From: a virus
Taxonomy: Duplodnaviria > Heunggongvirae > Uroviricota > Caudoviricetes
DNA length: 8,190 nucleotides
IMG/VR virus record: IMGVR_UViG_2734482595_000009
Span: 1-8,190 of that record
Strand: one strand, 5' to 3'
Part shown: piece by piece, positions 1 to 8,190 of the stretch
Layout of the letters: every line of letters begins with the position of its first letter
Position numbering within the stretch: position 1 is the first letter of the stretch
Notes under the pieces: generated by a model
The model's database searches: none
Told to the model about the DNA's origin: nothing
The model's input: the letters and a program-made list of their open reading frames with translations, nothing else
Made by a program: the position numbers and the translations under genes

Positions 1-3000
1 GGCTTGCCCTTAATCGTCCAGCCACGCATATCAGGGATCACGCCTGACGGATAAGCGACTGCAAGTTTCGGGTAGGCAGATTTGTCAAAAGTCTGCCCCT
101 GCATCAGGGCATAACCAGACGGAACGGTATCTGATGGCCACGGGATTGGTGCGCCAGGCGGATAAAACTGCTCTGATGGCGTATAGAGTGAATAAACTGT
201 ACCGTCCGTTAACCCTTCCGGCTTATTAGCAGAATATGCTGGTGACGTATGAATCGTTACGCTGGCATTACTGGTATAATCCCATTGAATATTTACACCA
301 GTCGCATAATTTCCGATTGCAACGTAAATATCGTAAGTATCACCAGATGTATTGACCCAGGCAAAATTTGTAAACCCTGCCGATGTGCGCTGCCATAAAG
401 CACCAGTAATCCCCTTCGGATTACCATTACCTGCACGCAAAACAAGTTCAGATATACCTGCCTGTTGAGGTGAACCGACGTTATATCCAGCCCCACCAAT
501 CAACGTAATTGAAACAACAGAACTCGCCTGCGGCATGGTTACCGTTGCCAGCTTGAACCATCCAGCACCACCACTAAAAGACATTGTTGTGGAGTTGATC
601 GTGCCTATAGACCGTGGGTTAAGTTCAATATCTTTAGAACCATCAAACGAAACACCAGATATTTTTATTGCTGTCTGAAGTTTCGTAGCTGTATCAGAAT
701 TTCCCTTAATCCCCTTAGGAGAATTAAGTGGTGTATTGATCGTCACTTCACCTGTTGCGTTATTTACTGCAAATGGTCGAAGACCGTTCCAGCCACCGTA
801 CTGGTCGCCTTTATCAGTCATGAGCAAGTAAGTATTTGCTCCATCATTTCGCCATATGACACCGTAATCACCTGCAATCATCCTTAACGCGTTCTGACTA
901 CGGACAATAACTTCATCATTAGCGTAAATCTTATTCCCGCTAATGTCTGACTTACTCAAAACAGGATACGAACTATAAAATCCATTACCTTGTTTAAAAT
1001 CTAAAATTAAATTTACCGCAACTGATTCAGAATAAGGATCAGTTGCGCCAAATTTATAAGTCGTTTCAGCAACAATATAATCAGAAGCAGGTGCAGTAAC
1101 GGAGAGACCTTCTTCTAAAAAGACCTCTACGGGAAATGCCCCACCTTCTATATAGAATACGCTGTCTACGGTATCGCCTTTATTACTCATCAGAATGGAA
1201 TGAATAGCGCGTTCCGATGATGAATAAGCCCAGAACATACCACAGGCATAGCTACCCCGGTCCGTCCAGCCGCCTGCGCAAACAAAACCATTAAACTCAC
1301 AATTATTCATTCTGTGATTAGCTGAGCGACTTGGCGTTGAAATGACAACGCGGGATGCCCGATGGCTGTCATTCCTTTTTATCACTAACGGATAATATTT
1401 ACCTTCCTGGACACCCGCCGGGGCATTTACCACAACGTATCGCATCCCCTTTTTCTGATCCACTTCACCTTTGCTGTAAACATTAATGTTACTCAGGAAG
1501 CGGTCCTTGTCGGGAATATCAGCACCGTTCTGGTCTTTCTGCAGACGTTTCTCTGCATTGTCATAGGCTGCTTTTACTGCCTTTGGCGTTGCCGCCAGCG
1601 TTTCAGACGTGCTGTTGGTCGCACTGCTGAGCTGTACTATCCCCTTTTTCGTCGTGCTCGCATCCTCAAGCGCCACGGCGGATGCAATATCCTCTGCCCG
1701 TTTTGCCGCTGTCTCAGCGCGCGTTGCTGCAGATTCCGCCGTACTTTTGCTCTGAGCTGCTGCCGTCGCACTACCAGCTGCCTCTGTCGCCTTCGTGGAT
1801 GCCGTCGTGGCGCTGCCCTTCGCTGCTGACGCCTGTCTGGTCGCCTCATCTTTTGAAGCAGACGCCGATGATGCCGATGACGCCGCCGAACTGGCGGACG
1901 ATGCCGCTGCCGTTTTTGAGGATTCTGCACGGGTTTCCGACGCTTTCGCGTTCGTTTCGGATGTCTTCGCTGCGGAAGCTGACCTCGCTGCTGCCGTGGC
2001 CTGCTCAGTGGCTTCGCCAGCCTTCGTTGTGGCTGTTGAAGCGGATGATGCGGCGCTTTCTGCCGATTTTCCTGCGGCGGTGGCACTGGCTGAGGCCTGC
2101 CCGGCACTTGTTGACGCGGCACTGGCAGATGATGCAGCCGCTGTTTTTGAGCCTGCCGCAGCTGAGGCACTCTGTGCTGCTGCCGTTTCAGAGGACCTGG
2201 CGTTTGTCTCAGACGTCTTTGCCGCCTTCGCGGAATTTCCTGCCGCCGTTGCCGAGGAAGCTGCACTACTGGCGCTTGATGATGCGTTCGTTTCTGATGA
2301 TTTTGCCGCCTCTTTTGAAGCCGACGCATCCCTGGCTGAGGTGGCAGCTTCTGACGCTTTCGTGGTCGCGGTGGATGCAGAAGTGGCGGCTGATTGTTCT
2401 GACGCTGCCGCATTCGTTTCTGACGTTTTCGCCGCACCTGCACTGGTAGCCGCCGCGCTTTTTGAGGACTCTGCAGCGGCAGCACTTTTTGAGGCTTCAG
2501 TGGCCTTTGTTGATGCCGTTCCTGCGCTGGAAGACGCTGACTGAGCCGACGACGCGGCCTGTCCGGCTGACGTGCTGGCTGCGCGTGCTGAGCCTGCAGC
2601 ATCAGTCGCATGGGTTGCCGCCTCACGGGCTGATGTGCTGGCATCGCTGGCTGACTTCTTCGCGGCTGCTGTGTTCTGTGCCACCGCGGACGCGTTACGC
2701 GCCACCTCTTCCACCATCAGTTCAAAACGTCGCAGTGCCTCCGGACGGGCATCATCCTCCGTCATGGCACCGAGAAAATCATTCAGCGTACCGGGTTGAG
2801 AATCTTCATACACGGTGATGGTCCCGGCATGTGACGGCGGGAATCCCTCCACCAACAGAATAACGCTGTACTGACCGTACTCAACGTCCATGCTGTAACG
2901 CCCGGCTTCATCCGGATTTTCTGAGGCCAGCGTGTTCACCACCACAGTGGTACTGTTACGTTTTGCTTTCAGCTGGATTGTGCAGTTCTGTACCGGTTTT

Positions 3001-3041
3001 CCTGTGCCGTCTTTCAGTACACCTGAAATCTTTACTGCCAT
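1..3041 (-). CDS. stf: Side tail fibre protein Stf (lambda Stf / StfR family), N-terminal 1013 codons; C-terminus lies beyond the left window edge
   Basis: ATG at 3041..3039 preceded by GGGGTG (Shine-Dalgarno, 5-nt spacer). Hand translation from 3041 gives [16 protein letters not shown], which I recall as the lambda Stf N-terminus. Hand translation inside the repeat region (2160..2240) gives [28 protein letters not shown]. At the left edge (3..170) it gives [54 protein letters not shown], a conserved distal Stf segment. The frame is open to the window edge as far as I translated it (3..599, 1440..1680, 2160..2240); the rest I did not translate by hand. This ORF is missing from the supplied track because it has no stop inside the window. 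Confidence 0.92.
1680..2700 (-). repeat. Imperfect tandem low-complexity tract encoding Ala/Ser/Thr-rich repeats (KTSETNA-like motifs) inside stf
   Basis: Recurrent near-identical DNA motifs on the plus strand (cgtttgtctcagacgtctttgccgcc near 2199, gcgttcgtttctgatgattttgccgcc near 2283, gcattcgtttctgacgttttcgccgca near 2410, cgttcgtttcggatgtcttcgctgcgg near 1950). The translated stf frame is Ala/Ser/Thr/Lys/Glu-rich. All three plus-strand and out-of-frame ORFs in the track here (1682..2449, 1795..2544, 1637..2644) are artefacts of this compositional bias. Boundaries are approximate. Confidence 0.7.
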
Positions 3042-3051
3042 ATTCACCCCA

Positions 3052-3079
3052 CAAAAAAGCCCGCCTGAACCGGCGGGCT
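3052..3079 (-). terminator. Rho-independent terminator downstream of lom, immediately upstream of the stf ribosome-binding site
   Basis: On the minus strand: AGCCCGCC - GGTTCA - GGCGGGC followed by TTTTTT (plus-strand A-run 3053..3058). A 7-8 bp GC-rich stem, 6-nt loop and U6 tract, 26 nt after the lom stop. Confidence 0.6.
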
Positions 3080-3105
3080 GTCATAACACTGTGTTACCTG
3101 GCTAA

Positions 3106-3705
3106 TCAGAATTTATAACCGACACCCACGATGAAACCGTCAGTGCGCCAGTCACCACTGCCGGAGCCTTCATAAGCAATATCAATGGCCACGGATTCGG
3201 TCGGGTTAAACTGCACGCCAGCCCCCCACGCCAGAGACGTGTTGCTGTGGCGACCGTCATCACTTCCGGTCAGCACATCGTGCGTTTTCCCCTTGTTGTC
3301 AGTTACGCGGAGATAATCCCCGGAGAAAGTCGACACACGGCTGTAAGCCACACCCGCCATCGCATACGCGCTGAACCATTCATTCACGCGTACAGACGGC
3401 CCCGCCATCACGCTGAACCAGCGGTTACGCACGGAATCTTCATGCCAGCGGGTATCGCTGTAACGGGTAAGCTGGCGATTCTTGTCTCCTGCATAGCTGA
3501 ATGACGTCACCAGCCCCAGCGTGTCCGTAAATTCATAACGGTATTTCACGTTAATCCCGTTCAGATCATCGCTGCCGGGAACGTTCGTCGAGGCATGAAG
3601 ATACCCCGCGCTCAGCGTGGCCTGCTGCTCAGACGCCCATGCAGGCGCACCGGATACGGCCAGACAGATGGCTGCGGACAAAATGGCTGCACAAACTTTA
3701 CGCAT
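3106..3705 (-). CDS. lom: Outer-membrane beta-barrel protein Lom (Ail/Lom/PagC family), 199 aa, lysogenic-conversion type gene
   Basis: ORF 3106..3705 with ATG at 3705 preceded by GAGAGG (5-nt spacer). N-terminus [26 protein letters not shown] is a typical Sec signal peptide with an AWA-SE cleavage motif. C-terminus ends in an aromatic residue (GYKF), typical of beta-barrel outer-membrane proteins. Overall close to lambda Lom as I recall it. Sits between J and stf exactly as in lambda. Confidence 0.93.
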
Positions 3706-3729
3706 AATTACCTCTCGCTTTTCTGCAAT

Positions 3730-3754
3730 AAAAAAGGCGCCATTTCTGGCGCCC
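3730..3754 (-). terminator. Rho-independent terminator between the J stop and the lom start
   Basis: On the minus strand: GGCGCC - AGAAAT - GGCGCC followed by TTTTTT (plus-strand A-run 3730..3735). A 6-bp all-GC stem, 6-nt loop and U6 tract, about 20 nt after the J stop codon (3773..3775). Confidence 0.55.
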
Positions 3755-3772
3755 GTATATGGGTTATAAAAT

Positions 3773-6700
3773 TCAGCTGATACTGATGCCTGCGGTGGCT
3801 TTCTTCATCACCACAACCAGCAAATCGCTGATACTTGCTGTGGGATACCAGTCATTTACCAGCCATGCTGACACCGAAAACTCCAGCGTCATGTGACCGT
3901 GACCGGCAGGCATATCAATAACGCCACTGTAAATCAGCGTATTATCCAGCGCGGTACGGTTATAAATTTCAGCACCGTTTTTCCGCACTATCAGACGGCA
4001 TGAGGAGTAAATATCAGTATGCTCTCTCTCATGTTTAGCGCCGCTGAATGCCACCGCCGGAATAACAATCTGCCGGTCAAACGGCTGATCGTCATAAACC
4101 CTGACGGTAATGGTCCCTGATGGCCACCGTTCCGGTGCACGGGAGTCCCGGGGGAAAGCTTTGCCCACTGTTTTAACGAGATCGCCTTCAATCTGGTTCG
4201 CGGACAGTTTTCCCAGAACCCGACAGTTCTCGTTAATCGTGACGTTGTTGAGCGTCCCGGAGTTCGCATTCACGTTACCGCTGATATCGGCATTTTTCGC
4301 CGTCAGCCGCCCGTCCGGTGTCAGGGAAAATGCCGGAGGATTACCGCCGCTGGTAATGGTCGGAGCCGTCAGGCGTTTCAGGAACACGTCGTTCATGAAT
4401 ATCTGATCGCCCTGACCAACAAACATTGGTCTTGTGTTGCCATTAGACGGATCAATAAACGCGATACGGTTAGCGGCAACCAGGAACTGGCTCAGTTTGC
4501 CTTCCTCCGTGTCCTCCATGCTGAGGCCAATACCCGCGACATAATGTTTGCCGTCTTTGGTCTGCTCAATTTTGACGCCCCACATGGCATTCCACTTATC
4601 GTTGGCGTCCTTCCACTCTTTCGAAAACTGCTCCAGTTTGCTGGCGTTATCTTCCGTCAGCTCAAAGTTTTCCAGTAGCTCCTTGCCGAGATGCGTTTTA
4701 TTGATCAACCCTTTATAAAAATTCAGATAACCTTCCGCATCATCGCTCGCCCGACCGACGGCCTCCACAAATGCCGATTTACCAACGGTATTCACGCTGC
4801 GGATATAAAAGTAATAATCATAACCCGGCTTAATATTGCTACTGGCAGCTATCCAGTACAGCGCCGTGCCAAGATAGCGGGCTGTGGTTTCAACCTGCCT
4901 GATATCAGCAATCCGCTTTTCCGAGAACCAGAACTCAAACTGCACCGTCGGGTCATATACAGCCAGTTTCGGGACCGCTGTTATCTGAAAATACCCTGGT
5001 ATCAGTTCAATAGTGACAGGCGCTGCAGGTGCGGCAATCCGGAACGATACCGATGCCGGATCGCCCTGCTGCCCCCACGCATTTGCCGCCCGGACCGTCA
5101 GCGTGTAACGCCCCAGCGCCAGCTGCCTGAAGCGGTATGTGGTTTCCGTCGTCCGGACCGTGCTGACCAGCCGCTCACTGCCGTCATCCGCTGTTACGGT
5201 CAGACGGAGCAGGAAGCTCACGCCCTTCACCACCTTCGGCGTGTCCCAGCGGGCCAGTACCTGATATTCCCCGCTGTCTGCGGAGACTTCGGCGGTCAGA
5301 TGCTGCACTGCTGGCGGCGTGACACCATTCACCGTGCCGCTCTGGTCGCCGTCAAAGTGCGCCCCGTTATCCACGATGGCTTCTTTTTCCGGTACATGCT
5401 GCACGGCGGTGATGGCATACGTGCCGTCGTCGTTCTCACGGATACTCACGCAGCGGAACAGGCGCTGGCGCAGCGTCGGCAGCTTCAGCCCCCACACGCT
5501 GTATTCAGCAACGCCGTCAGGAACACGGCTCACTTTCACCTTCACGCCGTCGGTGACGGACTGAACCTCCACGCTGACCGGATTGCCACTTCCGTCAACC
5601 AGGCTTATCAGCGTGGTACCGGAGGATGGCAGCGTGATTTCACGATCGAGCGTCAGCGTCCGGGTCTGGCTGTTCACCGCCAGCACACGACCACCGTTGC
5701 TGATACCGGCATAGTCATCATCGCAGATTTCAATGACATCGCCCGGTACATGGCGAAGCCCTTCAGCACCCACGCTGAAGTCCACGGTCTGCGTTTCCAG
5801 CAGCTCCGTTTTAATCAGCCACAGCCCGGCGCGGTGTGCCTGCCCCCGGCTGGTACAGCCAAAAGCATCCATCTTCGTGACGTTACGACCGTAACGGGCA
5901 ATGGCCTGCGTATCCTCCACAAGCTCTGTCGCCGTCTCCCAGCCGTTGTTCGGGTCAATCCAGTTCACCTCAACGGCATTATGGCGGTCTTTCAGGGCGC
6001 TGAAGCTGTAGCGGAACGGCGCGCCATCATCCGGCATCACCACATTACTGCGGTTATAGGTCCACACCTTATCTGATGGTCGGTCCTGCACGAACGTCAG
6101 CGTCTGCCCGTTCCATACCGGCATACAGCGCATCGCCGAGCAGAAATCACTGAGCACATCCCACGCCTTGCGCTGCGTGGTCAGCCAGGCATTACAGGTG
6201 ATGCGCGGCTCCGTGCCGCCAAAGCCGTCCGGCACCGACTGGTCGCAGTACTGGCCGATGACATACAGCGCCCATTTATCCACATCCGCCGCACCAAGAC
6301 GTTTCCCCATGCCGTAGCGCGGATGGGTCAGCATATCCCACAGACACCAGGCCGGGTTGTTGCTGTATGCCGGTTTTAACGTTCCGTCCCAGATACCGCT
6401 GTATTGCCGCGTCTGCGGGTTATAGTTCGACGGCACCTGCAGAATGCGCCCGCGAAGATGATAATTACGGCTCACCTGCTGGCTGCCGAACTGCTCCGAG
6501 TCCACCTGCACGCCGACCAGTGCCGTGTTCGGGTAGCACTGTTTCACATCGATGATTTCGGTGTACGACGACCAGAGCGTTTTGTTCTGCAGCTGGTCTG
6601 TAGTGCTGTCCGGTGTCATCCTGCGCATCCGGATATTGAACGGGCGCGGAGGCAGGTTATCCACCATCACCGAGGCCAGATACTGCGAGGTGGTTTTGCC

Positions 6701-7168
6701 CTTAATGGTGATGTCTTTTTCCGTCACCCAGCCACCGTTACGCTGTATCTGAACCAGCAGGCGGACTTCCGACGGATTCCTGTCACCCTTTGAGGTGGTT
6801 TCCACCAGTGCCTGTACACCGAAGGTAAAGCGCAGACGGTCGATGTTTGCCGACGTAATGGTACGGGTGATCGGCGTGTCATATTTCACTTCCGTACCCA
6901 GCACCGTCTCGGAGCCGGAGGATTCAAACCCCTCCGGCGGAGTCTGCTCCTGCTCACCTGCCCGGAACACCACCGTGACGCCGGATATATTGGTATTCCC
7001 CTCACTGTCCAGCACCGGCGTACTGTTCAGCAGCACGCTTTTTAATCCATCCACCGGACCTTCAATCGGCCCTTCGCTGATGGCATCAATCACACTCAGC
7101 AGCTGCGTGGATTTCAGGTTGTCCTTCGCTTCGCGCGGGGTATGCCCCTTACTGCTGCCTTTACCCAT
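3773..7168 (-). CDS. J: Tail tip attachment / host specificity protein J (central tail fibre), 1131 aa
   Basis: ORF 3773..7168 with ATG at 7168 and an upstream GGAG. N-terminus [34 protein letters not shown] and most of the length match lambda J as I recall it, and the length is 1131 aa versus 1132 in lambda. Position between I and lom is as in lambda. The last roughly 150 aa look divergent from lambda J. Confidence 0.97.
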
Positions 7169-7190
7169 TCCTCACGCTCCATAAACGACA

Positions 7191-7210
7191 AAACCGCCCG
7201 CAGGCGGTTT
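7191..7210 (-). promoter_or_regulatory. Stable stem-loop in the I-J intergenic spacer (terminator-like or RNA processing/stability element)
   Basis: On the minus strand: AAACCGCC - TGCG - GGCGGTTT, an 8-bp stem with a 4-nt loop, followed by U-rich TGTCGTTTAT. Lies between the I stop (7229) and the J start (7168). Confidence 0.35.
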
Positions 7211-7228
7211 CACATAAAACATTTTGCA

Positions 7229-7876
7229 TCAGCGACCAATCACCACAACCTGACCACCGTCCCCTTCGTCTGCCGTGCTGATCTCCTGAGAAACCACGCG
7301 TGACCCCACGCGCATTTCCCCGTACAGAACCGGCAGAACATTGCCCTGGGCAACCATGTTATCCAGTGAGGAGAAATACGTGTTCTGTTTGCCGTTATCT
7401 GTACTGGCTGCCGTGGGCGTCCTGGCTTTCGGTGCCAGCATCTGCGCCACTCCGCCCAGGATCATACTGGCCCCTGCCGCATACATGCCCGATACAGCCG
7501 CGGCACCCAGCCAACTCACAGGATTCCACCATGCCACCGCAATCAGCGCCGCCCCAAGCACCACCTGAAACACACCGCCACTTTTAGCTCCCGCCAGACG
7601 CGGCACGATGTGGATCACGGCACCATTTGCCAGCGGCTCATTAAGACGGGCAGATAATTCATTTTCGCCTGCATCACGCCCGGCAATGCGCACCTGATAC
7701 CAGCCCTCATTCAGTTTCTGACGAAACGCCGGGAGCTGTGTGGCCAGCGCCCGGATGGCTTCGGCCCCCGTTTTCACACGAAGGTCGATGCGGCGGCCAA
7801 ATCGTTGCAAATCCCCGTAAAGGCAGATGCGTGCCATGCCCGGTGACGCCAGAGGGAGTGTGTGCGTCGCTGCCAT
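7229..7876 (-). CDS. I: Tail tip assembly protein I, 215 aa
   Basis: ORF 7229..7876. N-terminus MAATHTLPLASPGMARICLYGDLQRFGRRIDLRVKTGAEAIRALATQLPAFRQK and C-terminus NTYFSSLDNMVAQGNVLPVLYGEMRVGSRVVSQEISTADEGDGGQVVVIGR match lambda I as I recall it. A hydrophobic Gly/Ala-rich central segment is present. Overlaps the 3' end of K by 103 bp in another frame, as in lambda. Confidence 0.93.
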   Translation of the reverse strand: MAATHTLPLASPGMARICLYGDLQRFGRRIDLRVKTGAEAIRALATQLPAFRQKLNEGWYQVRIAGRDAGENELSARLNEPLANGAVIHIVPRLAGAKSGGVFQVVLGAALIAVAWWNPVSWLGAAAVSGMYAAGASMILGGVAQMLAPKARTPTAASTDNGKQNTYFSSLDNMVAQGNVLPVLYGEMRVGSRVVSQEISTADEGDGGQVVVIGR

Positions 7877-8190
7877 TTGTCGGTATACCTCTCTCGTTTG
7901 CTCAGTTGTTCAGGAATATGGTGCAGCAGCTCGCCGTCGCCGCAGTAAATAGCGGCATGATTCGGCACCGATGAACCAAAACAGCACAGCAGCACATCGC
8001 CCGGCTGCGCCGCTGACAACGGCACCTGATATAGCCCCGTTGCCTCCAGATTATCCAGATAGAGATTCTGACCGTGACGCCACCAGTCATCCTCACGATG
8101 AAAATCCGGCATCTCAATCCCCGCCAGATGGTAAGCATCCCGGAACAGCGTGTAACAGTCCGTCACCCCGTGCTCAAAGCGCCGCCCGGT
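7774..8190 (-). CDS. K: Tail tip assembly protein K (NlpC/P60-type C-terminal domain), C-terminal 138 codons; N-terminus lies beyond the right window edge
   Basis: Hand translation of the minus strand from 8190 gives TGRRFEHGVTDCYTLFRDAYHLAG, continuing into track ORF 7774..8166. The track's start at 8166 is an internal GTG (Val) codon; the frame is open to the window edge. Contains the Cys/His motif context DCYTLF ... PGDVLLCCFGSSVPNHAAIYCGDGELLHHIP typical of NlpC/P60-like domains. Matches lambda K as I recall it. Confidence 0.93.
   Translation of the reverse strand, partial: TGRRFEHGVTDCYTLFRDAYHLAGIEMPDFHREDDWWRHGQNLYLDNLEATGLYQVPLSAAQPGDVLLCCFGSSVPNHAAIYCGDGELLHHIPEQLSKRERYTDKWQRRTHSLWRHRAWHASAFTGICNDLAAASTFV

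What the first reader, a model, noticed from the sequence alone, without database searches (positions are those of the whole stretch)
165..1510. AT-rich distal module inside stf flanked by conserved, GC-richer segments
By eye, stf sequence between about 200 and 1400 is markedly more AT-rich (for example ttaaaatctaaaattaaatttaccgcaactgattcag near 1000) than the N-terminal and repeat parts of stf and than I, J and K. I did not compute exact GC values. It sits between two segments I recognise as conserved in lambda/StfR-type fibres: [15 protein letters not shown] (near 1515..1560) and GAPIPWPSD...GWTIKGK (3..164). The encoded stretch (for example [106 protein letters not shown]) has a beta-rich, Gly/Thr/Ser/Asn-rich composition typical of fibre receptor-binding domains. 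This pattern suggests a horizontally exchanged specificity cassette.
Basis: partly seen in the sequence, partly recalled or inferred. Interest (0 to 1): 0.45.

Follow-up and report, generated by a model that had tools for sequence, protein, structure and literature searches.

The report
Mosaic AT-rich shaft of side tail fibre
The AT-rich stretch is real, but it is the swappable middle shaft of a lambda-type prophage side tail fibre, built from domains shared with T4-, T5- and P1-like phages. It is an ordinary case of tail-fibre mosaicism, and the receptor-binding tip lies beyond the end of the window.

Summary
Window 165..1510 (stf, minus strand) has GC 0.431 and GC3 0.353, against GC3 0.50-0.67 in the rest of stf, lom, J and I (Fisher p 2.5e-26). 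The difference persists at four-fold degenerate sites (0.35 vs 0.67). Both flanks are conserved, and identity breakpoints to relatives fall at about 1503/1440 and about 157.

It is not one cassette. Positions 635..1505 are 99% identical to E. coli AF16 and phage Turner stf. Positions 4..656 are 99.5% identical to E. coli S51 stf and 92% to P1-like phage JL22. The two join in a 16-nt identical core (635..650) inside a conserved GVSFDGS linker.

The architecture is: neck, domain X (no Pfam or PDB match), T4 gp34 P4-like beta-prism, linker, domain Y (T2-type gp37 shaft domain), gp37 collar. Relatives shuffle these same units.

It is not the receptor-binding tip. By homology with T4 gp37, the needle and tip follow the collar, past the contig end.

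This domain order was not found in any collection searched. The window is a complete short draft contig, so an assembly chimera is not excluded.

Verdict: a known phenomenon, a new allele, low interest.

The parts
2640..3041 (-). stf N-terminal domain (aa 1-134), which attaches the fibre to the tail; GC3 0.58
   Evidence: Pfam PF08400 phage_tail_N, E 8.8e-72, aa 1-134. Composition.
1656..2639 (-). Ala/Ser/Thr-rich repeat rod of stf (aa 135-462); GC 0.61, driven by GC2 of 0.80; GC3 0.50
   Evidence: Translation. Direct repeats spaced at multiples of 21 nt, mostly 42. Composition.
1506..1655 (-). Conserved neck (aa 463-512), [11 protein letters not shown]...[15 protein letters not shown]; the proximal recombination boundary
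   Evidence: Present in all comparator fibres. Aligns to Mu tail fibre S, 5yvq residues 138-172. Identity to PhiR29_1 stops at about 1503 and to S51 at about 1440.
942..1505 (-). Domain X (aa 513-700), a beta-rich fibre domain with no Pfam model and no solved relative; GC 0.426, GC3 0.36
   Evidence: 99.5% identical to phage PhiR30_1, about 60% to other lambdoid Stf, and 30-38% to Aeromonas T4-like, T5-like (Bf23), rV5-like and Hanrivervirus fibres. 130 representative clusters, median relative position 0.45. No Pfam or PDB hit by profile. AF2 pLDDT 55.5.
971..1100 (-). The most AT-rich part of the trough (aa 648-690); GC 0.315, GC3 0.07
   Evidence: Two-change-point likelihood scan of GC3 along stf. 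GC.
1008..1056 (-). Stable hairpin in the stf sense strand (19-nt arms, 11-nt loop) followed by a U-rich tract; significance unknown
   Evidence: inverted repeat I1; dG -24.1 kcal/mol, z = -5.0, 0 of 200 shuffles as stable. Present in the AF16 and Turner alleles, absent from the S51-type domain X.
705..941 (-). T4 gp34 P4-like beta-prism plus triple beta-helix segment (aa 701-779)
   Evidence: Pfam PF21446 Gp34_trimer, E 3.1e-30, aa 655-758. [quoted passage not shown]
621..704 (-). Linker motif [28 protein letters not shown] (aa 780-807), a connector that bounds most of the shaft domains in relatives; GC3 0.11
   Evidence: 1-8 copies per relative, flanking X, G, Y and Z. [quoted passage not shown]
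635..650 (-). Crossover core TCGTTTGATGGTTCTA (codes SFDGS). Gene-upstream of it the window follows the AF16/Turner type; gene-downstream it follows the S51/JL22 type
   Evidence: Five-sequence nucleotide alignment. Megablast ranges.
168..620 (-). Domain Y (aa 808-958), a beta-rich shaft domain; GC 0.457, GC3 0.36
   Evidence: 99.5% nucleotide identity to E. coli S51 stf. Protein identity: 96.5% to P1-like JL22, 68% to T5-like Kenya-K18, 58% to ST64B, 47% to T2 gp37. 53% to Sf24 gp37 aa 822-937 of 1287. AF2 pLDDT 43.5, all-beta.
1..167 (-). First half of the gp37-type collar domain (aa 959-1013), the conserved distal boundary; the contig ends inside it; GC3 0.53
   Evidence: Pfam PF07484 Collar, E 4.3e-11. 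T4 gp37 2xgf chain residues 15-82, E 5e-28, about 90% identity from GAPIPWPSD onward. All comparators become near-identical from about 157. Contig end.

Best explanation
The AT-rich stretch is the mosaic middle-to-distal shaft of a lambda-type side tail fibre (Stf). It lies between the conserved neck (..NGADIPDK) and the T4 gp37-type collar.

It is a string of autonomous trimeric beta-rich fibre domains:
- X, uncharacterised;
- G, a T4 gp34 P4-like beta-prism with beta-helix;
- L, a roughly 28-aa linker motif;
- Y, a T2-type gp37 shaft domain.

The same units occur in other orders and copy numbers in fibres of lambdoid prophages, P1-like phage-plasmids, and T4-, T5-, rV5- and FelixO1-like virulent phages.

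Inferred mechanism. Recombination between short conserved stretches (neck, L motif, collar) swaps or duplicates the intervening domains in frame. The window's allele is one such recombinant. It has X-G from an AF16/Turner-type fibre and Y plus collar from an S51-type fibre, crossed over within 16 identical bases of the L motif.

The AT-richness at synonymous sites most likely reflects the low-GC phage gene pool in which these domains circulate, together with incomplete amelioration in a roughly 57% GC lambdoid tail operon.

Functionally the module sets the length, geometry and stiffness of the fibre between the rod and the tip. The receptor-contacting needle and head follow the collar and lie off the contig.

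Shown: the composition, the breakpoints, the domain homologies and the combinatorial architectures. Inferred: the direction of transfer, the recombination pathway and the structural (non-binding) role.
For: Composition:
- GC3 0.35 against 0.62, p 2.5e-26; four-fold sites 0.35 against 0.67.

Breakpoints and differing donors:
- AF16 is 99.3% identical over 628..3041, has no match over 157..627, and is 98% identical over 1..156.
- S51 is 99.5% identical over 4..656 and 95% over 1440..3041, with only weak, short matches (72-76% over about 70-120 nt) between them.
- The junction was mapped to 635..650. The outer boundaries are at about 1503/1440 and about 157.

Distribution:
- 294 phage records and 5141 of 5426 E. 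coli genomes match somewhere in stf.
- Only 138 genomes carry the A+B arrangement.
- About 1,300 E. coli records carry segment C at 95% identity or more.

Domain identities.

Combinatorial architectures, bounded by L:
- window: N-K-X-G-L-Y-C;
- AF16, Turner, PhiR34_1: N-K-X-G-L-Z-C;
- S51: N-K-X-L-L-Y-C;
- others: (L-L-Y-G)n, and up to 8 L in tandem.

Low-GC homes of the domains:
- X homologues in T4-like, T5-like, rV5-like and Hanrivervirus phages have GC 0.42-0.45 and GC3 0.26-0.40.
- Sf24 gene 37 has GC 0.36 and GC3 0.18.
- DNA-level similarity of 67-68% between 140..660 and T-even gene 37 is still detectable.

Shaft position rather than tip:
- X has a median relative position of 0.45 in 75 long proteins.
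- Y lies at aa 822-937 of the 1287-aa Sf24 gp37.
[quoted passage not shown] The P4 label is my reading.
- The collar (D10) precedes the needle and tip (D11), which bind LPS and OmpC in T4 (PMC6957217).
- Relatives have a His-x-His needle and a hypervariable head after the collar.

Literature: stf is a documented case of ancient transfer between temperate and virulent phages, and lambda recombines with prophage stf/tfa regions through relaxed homologous recombination (PMC3945230).
Against: - No direct functional data exist for X or Y. Monomer AF2 models were poor (pLDDT 55.5 and 43.5), so a binding pocket cannot be excluded.
- Among close relatives the shaft module varies at least as much as the tip, which could mean it is under diversifying selection for host recognition.
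- Sixteen bases of identity is short for RecA-type recombination. The true parents may have shared more, or the join may not be natural.
- The direction of transfer (low-GC phage to prophage) rests on composition alone.
- The proximal roughly 340 nt of the module (1170..1510) is not markedly AT-rich at third positions. Composition and mosaic boundaries therefore do not coincide exactly.
Confidence: 0.75

Rival explanations
1. One reading: the module is itself a receptor-binding specificity cassette. Domains X and/or Y bind a surface glycan or protein and set host range, and they are exchanged for that reason.
For: - It is the most variable stretch between otherwise 95-99% identical fibres.
- It is beta-rich and rich in Gly, Ser, Asn and Thr.
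- The top Foldseek hits for the X model happen to be carbohydrate-binding modules, but none is significant (best E 0.1, TM 0.2 or less).
- Side fibres of lambda-like phages can bind LPS sugars (Gifsy-1 Stf, PMC12312913).
Against: - Homology places the receptor-contacting element after the collar, which is off the window (PMC6957217).
- The gp34-like part comes from the proximal half-fibre of T4 (PMC5537660).
- In T2-type gp37, Y and a G-like domain sit 230-465 residues from the C-terminus, and a separate gp38 is annotated as the adhesin.
- X is never C-terminal in 75 long homologues.
- The fold search was not significant and the model confidence was low.
Confidence: 0.2
2. The B|C join at 635..650, and hence the unique X-G-L-Y-C order, is an assembly or gap-filling chimera between two prophage stf copies in a short-read draft genome. 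It would then not be a natural recombinant.
For: - The window is the whole of an 8190-bp draft contig, CXAJ01000162.1 of GCA_001247905.1, which ends inside the repeated collar sequence.
- The join is absent from 5426 complete E. coli genomes, 50,697 phage records and 72,556 plasmids.
- An exact 46-mer spanning the join is absent from the genome, viral and metagenome contig collections.
- Both parental types are common in E. coli.
Against: - The shared core is only 16 nt, which I expect to be shorter than the k-mers usually used in short-read assembly (my assumption; the assembler is not known).
- The join is exactly in frame, within a motif where relatives also change partners.
- The contig is reported for 2 samples.
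- There are no ambiguous bases or other irregularities at the join.
Confidence: 0.1
3. The AT-richness is a local functional or selective feature rather than a mark of foreign origin. Candidates are amino-acid composition, H-NS binding, an internal promoter or terminator, or an RNA structure.
For: - A strong sense-strand hairpin with a U-rich tail lies in the AT trough (1008..1056, z = -5.0).
- One antisense promoter-like site lies at 1053..1081.
Against: - The AT excess holds at four-fold degenerate sites across about 1.3 kb.
- The promoter-like count is below the shuffle expectation (1 found against 2.7 expected).
- There are no Rfam matches.
- The hairpin is absent from the S51-type domain X, which is equally AT-rich.
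- Homologous domains are AT-rich in their other phage hosts.
Confidence: 0.05

Closest known systems
Lambda-family side tail fibre Stf (Ur-lambda Stf; StfR of Rac; stf of phages Turner, PhiR30_1 and PhiR29_1, and of the E. coli AF16 and S51 prophages)
   Same: - Same gene position, J-lom-stf.
- The PF08400 N-terminal domain, the Ala/Ser/Thr repeat rod, the conserved neck and the gp37-type collar are all present.
- Nucleotide identity is 95-99% over the N-terminal 1.5-2.4 kb.
   Different: - No record found has the same domain order (X-G-L-Y-C).
- AF16 and Turner have Z in place of Y. S51 has a 59%-identical X and L-L in place of G-L. PhiR29_1 has none of X, G, L, Y or Z between neck and collar.
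- Lambda itself matches only the first 905 nt, at 87%.
T4 long tail fibre proteins: gp37 distal half-fibre (collar D10 and needle D11, PDB 2XGF), T2-type gp37, and the gp34 C-terminal region (PDB 4UXE/5NXF)
   Same: - The collar is about 90% identical to T4 gp37.
- Domain G aligns to gp34 residues 1034-1126.
- Domain Y is 47-53% identical to a shaft domain of T2-type gp37.
   Different: - The domains are in a different order: G-L-Y here, against Y...G in Sf24 gp37.
- Domains from the T4 proximal protein (gp34) and distal protein (gp37) are fused in one polypeptide.
- GC is 0.43-0.46 here against 0.36 in Sf24 gene 37.
- The needle and tip are not in the window.
Tail-fibre mosaicism by recombination at conserved motifs. 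From my own knowledge: Haggard-Ljungquist et al. 1992; Sandmeier 1994; Tetart et al. 1998. Also summarised in PMC3945230.
   Same: Abrupt in-frame exchanges between unrelated temperate and virulent phages, bounded by short conserved motifs. The 16-nt crossover here lies in such a motif.
   Different: The classic cases concern the adhesin tip (His boxes and Gly islands of gp37/gp38) or invertase-switched C-terminal exons. Here the exchanged units are shaft domains upstream of the collar, and no invertase site is visible in the window.
P1-like (Punavirus) phage-plasmid tail fibre, for example the phage JL22 stf
   Same: Shares L-Y-collar at 92% nucleotide and 96.5% protein identity.
   Different: The N-terminal two-thirds is unrelated, with no PF08400 domain, no X and no G. 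It is a myovirus fibre adjacent to a cin invertase segment.

Membership tests
Lambda-type side tail fibre (Stf) | N-terminal 'prophage tail fibre N-terminal' domain (PF08400) | tested here: met
   E 8.8e-72, 239.9 bits against a cut-off of 26.6, aa 1-134.
Lambda-type side tail fibre (Stf) | The gene lies directly downstream of J and lom in the tail operon | tested here: met
   K, I, J, lom and stf are all on the minus strand. The same order is annotated in Turner, PhiR29_1, PhiR34_1, S51 and AF16.
Lambda-type side tail fibre (Stf) | A tail fibre assembly gene (tfa) immediately downstream | not testable with these tools
   The contig ends inside stf. All five close relatives have tfa directly after stf.
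T4 gp37-type receptor-binding tip | Collar (D10) domain | tested here: met
   PF07484, E 4.3e-11. 2xgf, E 5e-28, about 90% identity. Only the first half is in the window.
T4 gp37-type receptor-binding tip | Needle (D11) with His-x-His repeats and a variable head inserted in the collar | not testable with these tools
   It lies beyond window base 1. It is present in all six relatives examined, with a hypervariable central segment.
T4 gp34 C-terminal beta-prism/beta-helix (Pfam Gp34_trimer, PF21446) | A significant match to the family model and to the solved gp34 chains | tested here: met
   PF21446, E 3.1e-30, 105.5 bits against a cut-off of 27. 4uxe, 5nxf and 9x3r, E about 3e-19, gp34 residues 1034-1126.
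Horizontally exchanged mosaic segment | Abrupt identity breakpoints against close relatives | tested here: met
   Breakpoints at about 1503/1440, 635..650 and about 157.
Horizontally exchanged mosaic segment | Segments have different distributions and donors from the flanks | tested here: met
   Flanks match 294 phage records and 5141 genomes. Segment B occurs in 2 phages and 138 genomes. Segment C occurs in about 1,300 E. coli records and in P1-like plasmids.
Horizontally exchanged mosaic segment | Compositional deviation at synonymous sites | tested here: met
   GC at four-fold sites is 0.345 against 0.670, p 2e-19.
Receptor-binding (specificity) domain | Located at the distal tip, or shown or predicted to bind a receptor | tested here: not met
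   The position is proximal to the collar. Homologues sit mid-protein. No confident model and no significant fold match to a binding module. Binding itself was not tested.
Invertase-switched tail-fibre C-segment (Cin/Gin/Pin type) | An invertase gene and inverted crossover sites flanking alternative C-terminal exons | not testable with these tools
   The region downstream of stf is off the contig. Turner and PhiR34_1 carry an invertase gene after tfa. No long inverted repeat occurs within 1..3100 other than a local hairpin.

The most novel reading that the evidence does not exclude
Domains X and/or Y are lateral, lectin-like auxiliary binding domains. The Stf would then have two specificity layers, a shaft-borne glycan (O-antigen or LPS) binder and the gp37-type tip, which recombine independently at the L linker. 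Domain X (about 130 sequence clusters, no Pfam model, no solved structure) would then be a new and widespread receptor-binding fold, shared by lambdoid, T4-like, T5-like and rV5-like fibres.
Probability: 0.15. Interest if true: 0.5.

Novelty: new member of a known kind. Interest (0 to 1): 0.2.

Why it matters
Tail-fibre mosaicism is textbook, so the finding does not change understanding. Three smaller points are useful.

1. It gives a base-resolved example of an in-frame domain swap at a roughly 28-aa connector motif. That motif bounds most shaft domains in this fibre family, so it marks practical splice points for engineering chimeric Stf fibres.
2. It shows that the variable, AT-rich part of these prophage fibres is shaft rather than tip. 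Host-range predictions based on this stretch would therefore be unsafe.
3. It flags domain X as a recurrent fibre domain that has no family model and no structure.

Tried and rejected
- AF2 monomer models of X and Y, built on shallow alignments, were poor: pLDDT 55.5 with pTM 0.64, and pLDDT 43.5.
- Foldseek of the X model against the PDB gave nothing significant (best E 0.1). I do not rely on its CBM-like top hits.
- Profile searches with domain X (6 and then 27 diverse sequences) against the PDB returned only chance antibody hits. A scan of the six domain X homologues against Pfam returned nothing.
- The search for homologous proteins appears to list only proteins up to about 1.75 times the query length. 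Full-length fibres were therefore missing, and the alignment search returned mostly fragments. Its failure to show the B+C combination is weak evidence.
- The top hit P0001 looked like a full match but is a repeated (L-L-Y-G)n protein.
- An exact 46-mer across the join found nothing in genome contigs, viral contigs or metagenome contigs. Genome contigs holds only one genome per species, so it has little power here.
- Rfam gave no match.
- The promoter and terminator scan found nothing above the shuffle expectation inside the module.
- A literature search for the linker motif as a text string found nothing relevant.
- I considered and rejected the idea that the GC contrast is purely an amino-acid effect. 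That is true for the high GC of the Ala-rich repeats but not for the low GC3 and GC4 of the module.
Full report
**Setting**

All genes in the window are on the minus strand:
- a C40/NlpC-P60 peptidase (K-like; 7774..8166 as listed, the called gene reaches the contig end);
- I (7229..7876);
- J (3773..7168);
- lom (3106..3705);
- stf, which starts at 3041 and runs off the window at base 1, leaving 1013 aa visible.

The window is the whole of an 8190-bp draft contig, CXAJ01000162.1 of NCBI assembly GCA_001247905.1.

Yes.
- GC is 0.431 for 165..1510. It is 0.561 for 1..164, 0.588 for 1511..3041 and 0.566 for the rest of the window.
- At third codon positions the module has GC3 0.353. The other parts of stf have 0.50-0.58, and lom, J and I have 0.63-0.67.
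- Against all other coding sequence, Fisher p is 2.5e-26. At four-fold degenerate sites GC is 0.345 against 0.670, p 2e-19.
- The effect is therefore not explained by amino-acid composition.
- The trough is uneven. GC3 stays near 0.5 from 1510 down to about 1170. It falls to 0.07 at 971..1100 and to 0.11 in the linker at 621..704.

**Are the flanks conserved and the interior exchanged?**

| Comparator | High-identity ranges (window coordinates) |
|---|---|
| E. coli AF16 prophage | 99.3% over 628..3041; 98% over 1..156; nothing between |
| Phage Turner | same pattern as AF16 |
| Phage PhiR29_1 | stops at 1503; resumes at 169 |
| E. coli S51 | 95% over 1440..3041; 99.5% over 4..656 |
| P1-like phage JL22 | 92% over 1..704 only |

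- Nucleotide alignments put the proximal boundaries just after NGADIPDK (against PhiR29_1) or after KKGMR (against S51). The distal boundary is at about 157, just before GAPIPWPSD.
- Some part of stf matches 294 phage records and 5141 of 5426 complete E. coli genomes.
- Only 138 genomes have the AF16-type arrangement. About 1,300 E. coli records carry the 140..660 piece at 95% identity or more. That piece also occurs on P1-like phage-plasmids of 90-105 kb.

**It is two pieces, not one cassette**

- A five-sequence alignment shows that the window follows AF16/Turner in the gene-upstream direction through ...ATATCTGGTGTTTCGTTTGATGGTTCTA.
- It follows S51/JL22 from TCGTTTGATGGTTCTAAAGAT... onward.
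- The only shared interval is the 16 nt TCGTTTGATGGTTCTA at 635..650, which codes SFDGS.

**Anatomy**

| Unit | Residues | Window coordinates | Identification |
|---|---|---|---|
| N | aa 1-134 | 2640..3041 | PF08400 N-terminal domain |
| Rod | aa 135-462 | 1656..2639 | Ala/Ser/Thr repeat rod |
| K (neck) | aa 463-512 | 1506..1655 | aligns to Mu fibre S |
| X | aa 513-700 | 942..1505 | uncharacterised domain |
| G | aa 701-779 | 705..941 | PF21446; aligns to T4 gp34 1034-1126 and Mu S 268-334 |
| L (linker) | aa 780-807 | 621..704 | [28 protein letters not shown] |
| Y | aa 808-958 | 168..620 | T2-type gp37 shaft domain |
| C (collar) | aa 959-1013 | 3..167 | PF07484; about 90% identical to T4 gp37 |

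Domain X:
- It has no Pfam family, and no solved relative even with a 27-sequence profile.
- It defines about 130 representative clusters among 1.84 billion proteins, inside proteins of roughly 400-2700 aa (short hits are fragments).
- Its median relative position in those proteins is 0.45, with a range of 0.12-0.83.
- Homologues at 30-38% identity sit mid-fibre in an Aeromonas T4-like long fibre, the Bf23 (T5-like) L-shaped fibre, an rV5-like lateral fibre and a Hanrivervirus fibre.

Domain Y:
- It is 96.5% identical to P1-like JL22, 68% to a T5-like Salmonella phage, 58% to ST64B and 47% to T2 gp37.
- In Sf24, a T2-type phage with a separate gp38 adhesin, it lies at aa 822-937 of 1287. A G-like domain follows at aa 975-1056.

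**Modularity**

I scanned relatives with the window's own units.
- Window: N-K-X-G-L-Y-C.
- AF16, Turner, PhiR34_1: N-K-X-G-L-Z-C.
- S51: N-K-X-L-L-Y-C.
- JL22: K...L...L-Y-C.
- Other E. coli proteins: (L-L-Y-G)n, X-L-L-L-L-L-Y, and up to eight L in tandem.

L bounds most of the domains. [quoted passage not shown]

**Where is the receptor-binding part?**

- In T4 gp37 the collar D10 comprises residues 811-881 and 1010-1026. It carries the inserted needle D11 (882-1009), whose tip residues bind LPS and OmpC (PMC6957217).
- The window stops in the first half of the collar.
- The six relatives examined continue with His-x-His repeats around a short hypervariable segment, then a conserved C-terminus.
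- The element that sets receptor specificity by homology is therefore off the contig, and the AT-rich module lies proximal to it.

**Why is it AT-rich?**

- Homologous X domains in virulent phages have GC 0.42-0.45 and GC3 0.26-0.40, in line with their surrounding loci.
- Sf24 gene 37 has GC 0.36 and GC3 0.18.
- DNA-level similarity of 67-68% between 140..660 and T-even gene 37 is still detectable.
- The same trough is present in the AF16, Turner and S51 alleles. It is absent from PhiR29_1, which carries none of the X, G, L, Y or Z units between neck and collar.
- My inference is that these domains circulate in a low-GC phage gene pool and have not ameliorated in the roughly 57% GC lambdoid tail operon.
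- From general knowledge, lambda itself changes from a GC-rich left arm to an AT-rich b region around stf, so a compositional step here is expected for this phage group.

**Mechanism**

- Recombination at short conserved stretches (neck, L, collar) swaps whole domains in frame.
- Lambda is known to pick up prophage stf/tfa DNA by relaxed, Red-dependent homologous recombination.
- stf is cited as the documented case of ancient exchange between temperate and virulent phages (PMC3945230).
- The recombination pathway used for this particular allele is not shown.

**Uniqueness and caveat**

- No record covers 80% or more of a 301-nt query spanning the join. This holds for 5426 complete E. coli genomes, the phage collection and the plasmid collection.
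- No stf match exceeds 85% coverage.
- An exact 46-mer across the join is absent from three contig collections.
- The source is a short draft contig that ends in a repeated sequence, so an assembly or gap-filling chimera cannot be excluded.
- Against that, a 16-nt overlap is probably shorter than the k-mers usually used in short-read assembly (my assumption), and the join is in frame.

**Structure prediction**

It was attempted and was uninformative.
- X: pLDDT 55.5, pTM 0.64.
- Y: pLDDT 43.5.
- Both models are all-beta.
- Foldseek of X against the PDB had no hit below E 0.1.

**Verdict**

- 'Horizontally exchanged' is supported.
- 'Single', 'distal', 'receptor-binding' and 'specificity' are not supported.
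- This is an ordinary, well-understood kind of tail-fibre mosaic. It comes in a domain order not seen elsewhere, and it includes one recurrent domain (X) that still lacks a family model and a structure.

Noticed in passing
window 3773..4170 (minus strand, J C-terminus): The last roughly 130 aa of J are only 52-56% identical to the AF16 J, while aa 1-650 are 96-100% identical. Megablast matches to all comparators drop out here, and GC dips to 0.48. This is probably a second exchanged receptor-binding region in the same window.
   Followed up: partly
window 1008..1056 (minus strand, inside stf domain X): A 19-nt-arm hairpin with an 11-nt loop, followed by a U-rich tract in the sense strand. dG is -24.1 kcal/mol and z is -5.0, with no shuffle as stable. 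It is conserved in the AF16 and Turner alleles and absent from the S51-type domain X. Its function, if any, is unknown.
   Followed up: partly
window 1..8190: The window is the complete draft contig CXAJ01000162.1 (GCA_001247905.1). It ends inside the collar sequence, which is repeated in many prophages. The 3' end of stf and tfa are therefore missing because of an assembly break.
   Followed up: yes
window 3048..3079 (minus strand): A terminator-like hairpin (8-bp stem, 7 G-C pairs) with a T-run lies between the lom stop (3106) and the stf start (3041).
   Followed up: no
window 1637..2644 (-), 1682..2449 (+), 1795..2544 (+): Long ORFs (249-335 aa) in other frames and on the other strand overlap the GCN-rich repeat region of stf. 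They look like by-products of the repeat composition rather than genes.
   Followed up: no
window 621..704 and relatives (P0040, P0155, others): The roughly 28-aa motif [26 protein letters not shown] occurs 1-8 times per fibre and bounds most of the shaft domains. [quoted passage not shown] I found no description of it in the searchable literature.
   Followed up: partly
L001 7033..7623; L003 7072..7662: Phages Turner and PhiR34_1 carry a DNA invertase (Pin-type serine recombinase) gene just after tfa. AF16 has only a recombinase pseudogene there. I did not examine whether these fibres are invertase-switched.
   Followed up: no
L004-L006, L001-L003 (stf C-termini beyond the window): The tips of the six relatives are identical in their conserved needle parts. 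They differ in a 40-60 aa central segment between His-x-His boxes. S51 and PhiR34_1 have identical tips despite different shaft modules, which shows that tip and shaft assort independently.
   Followed up: partly
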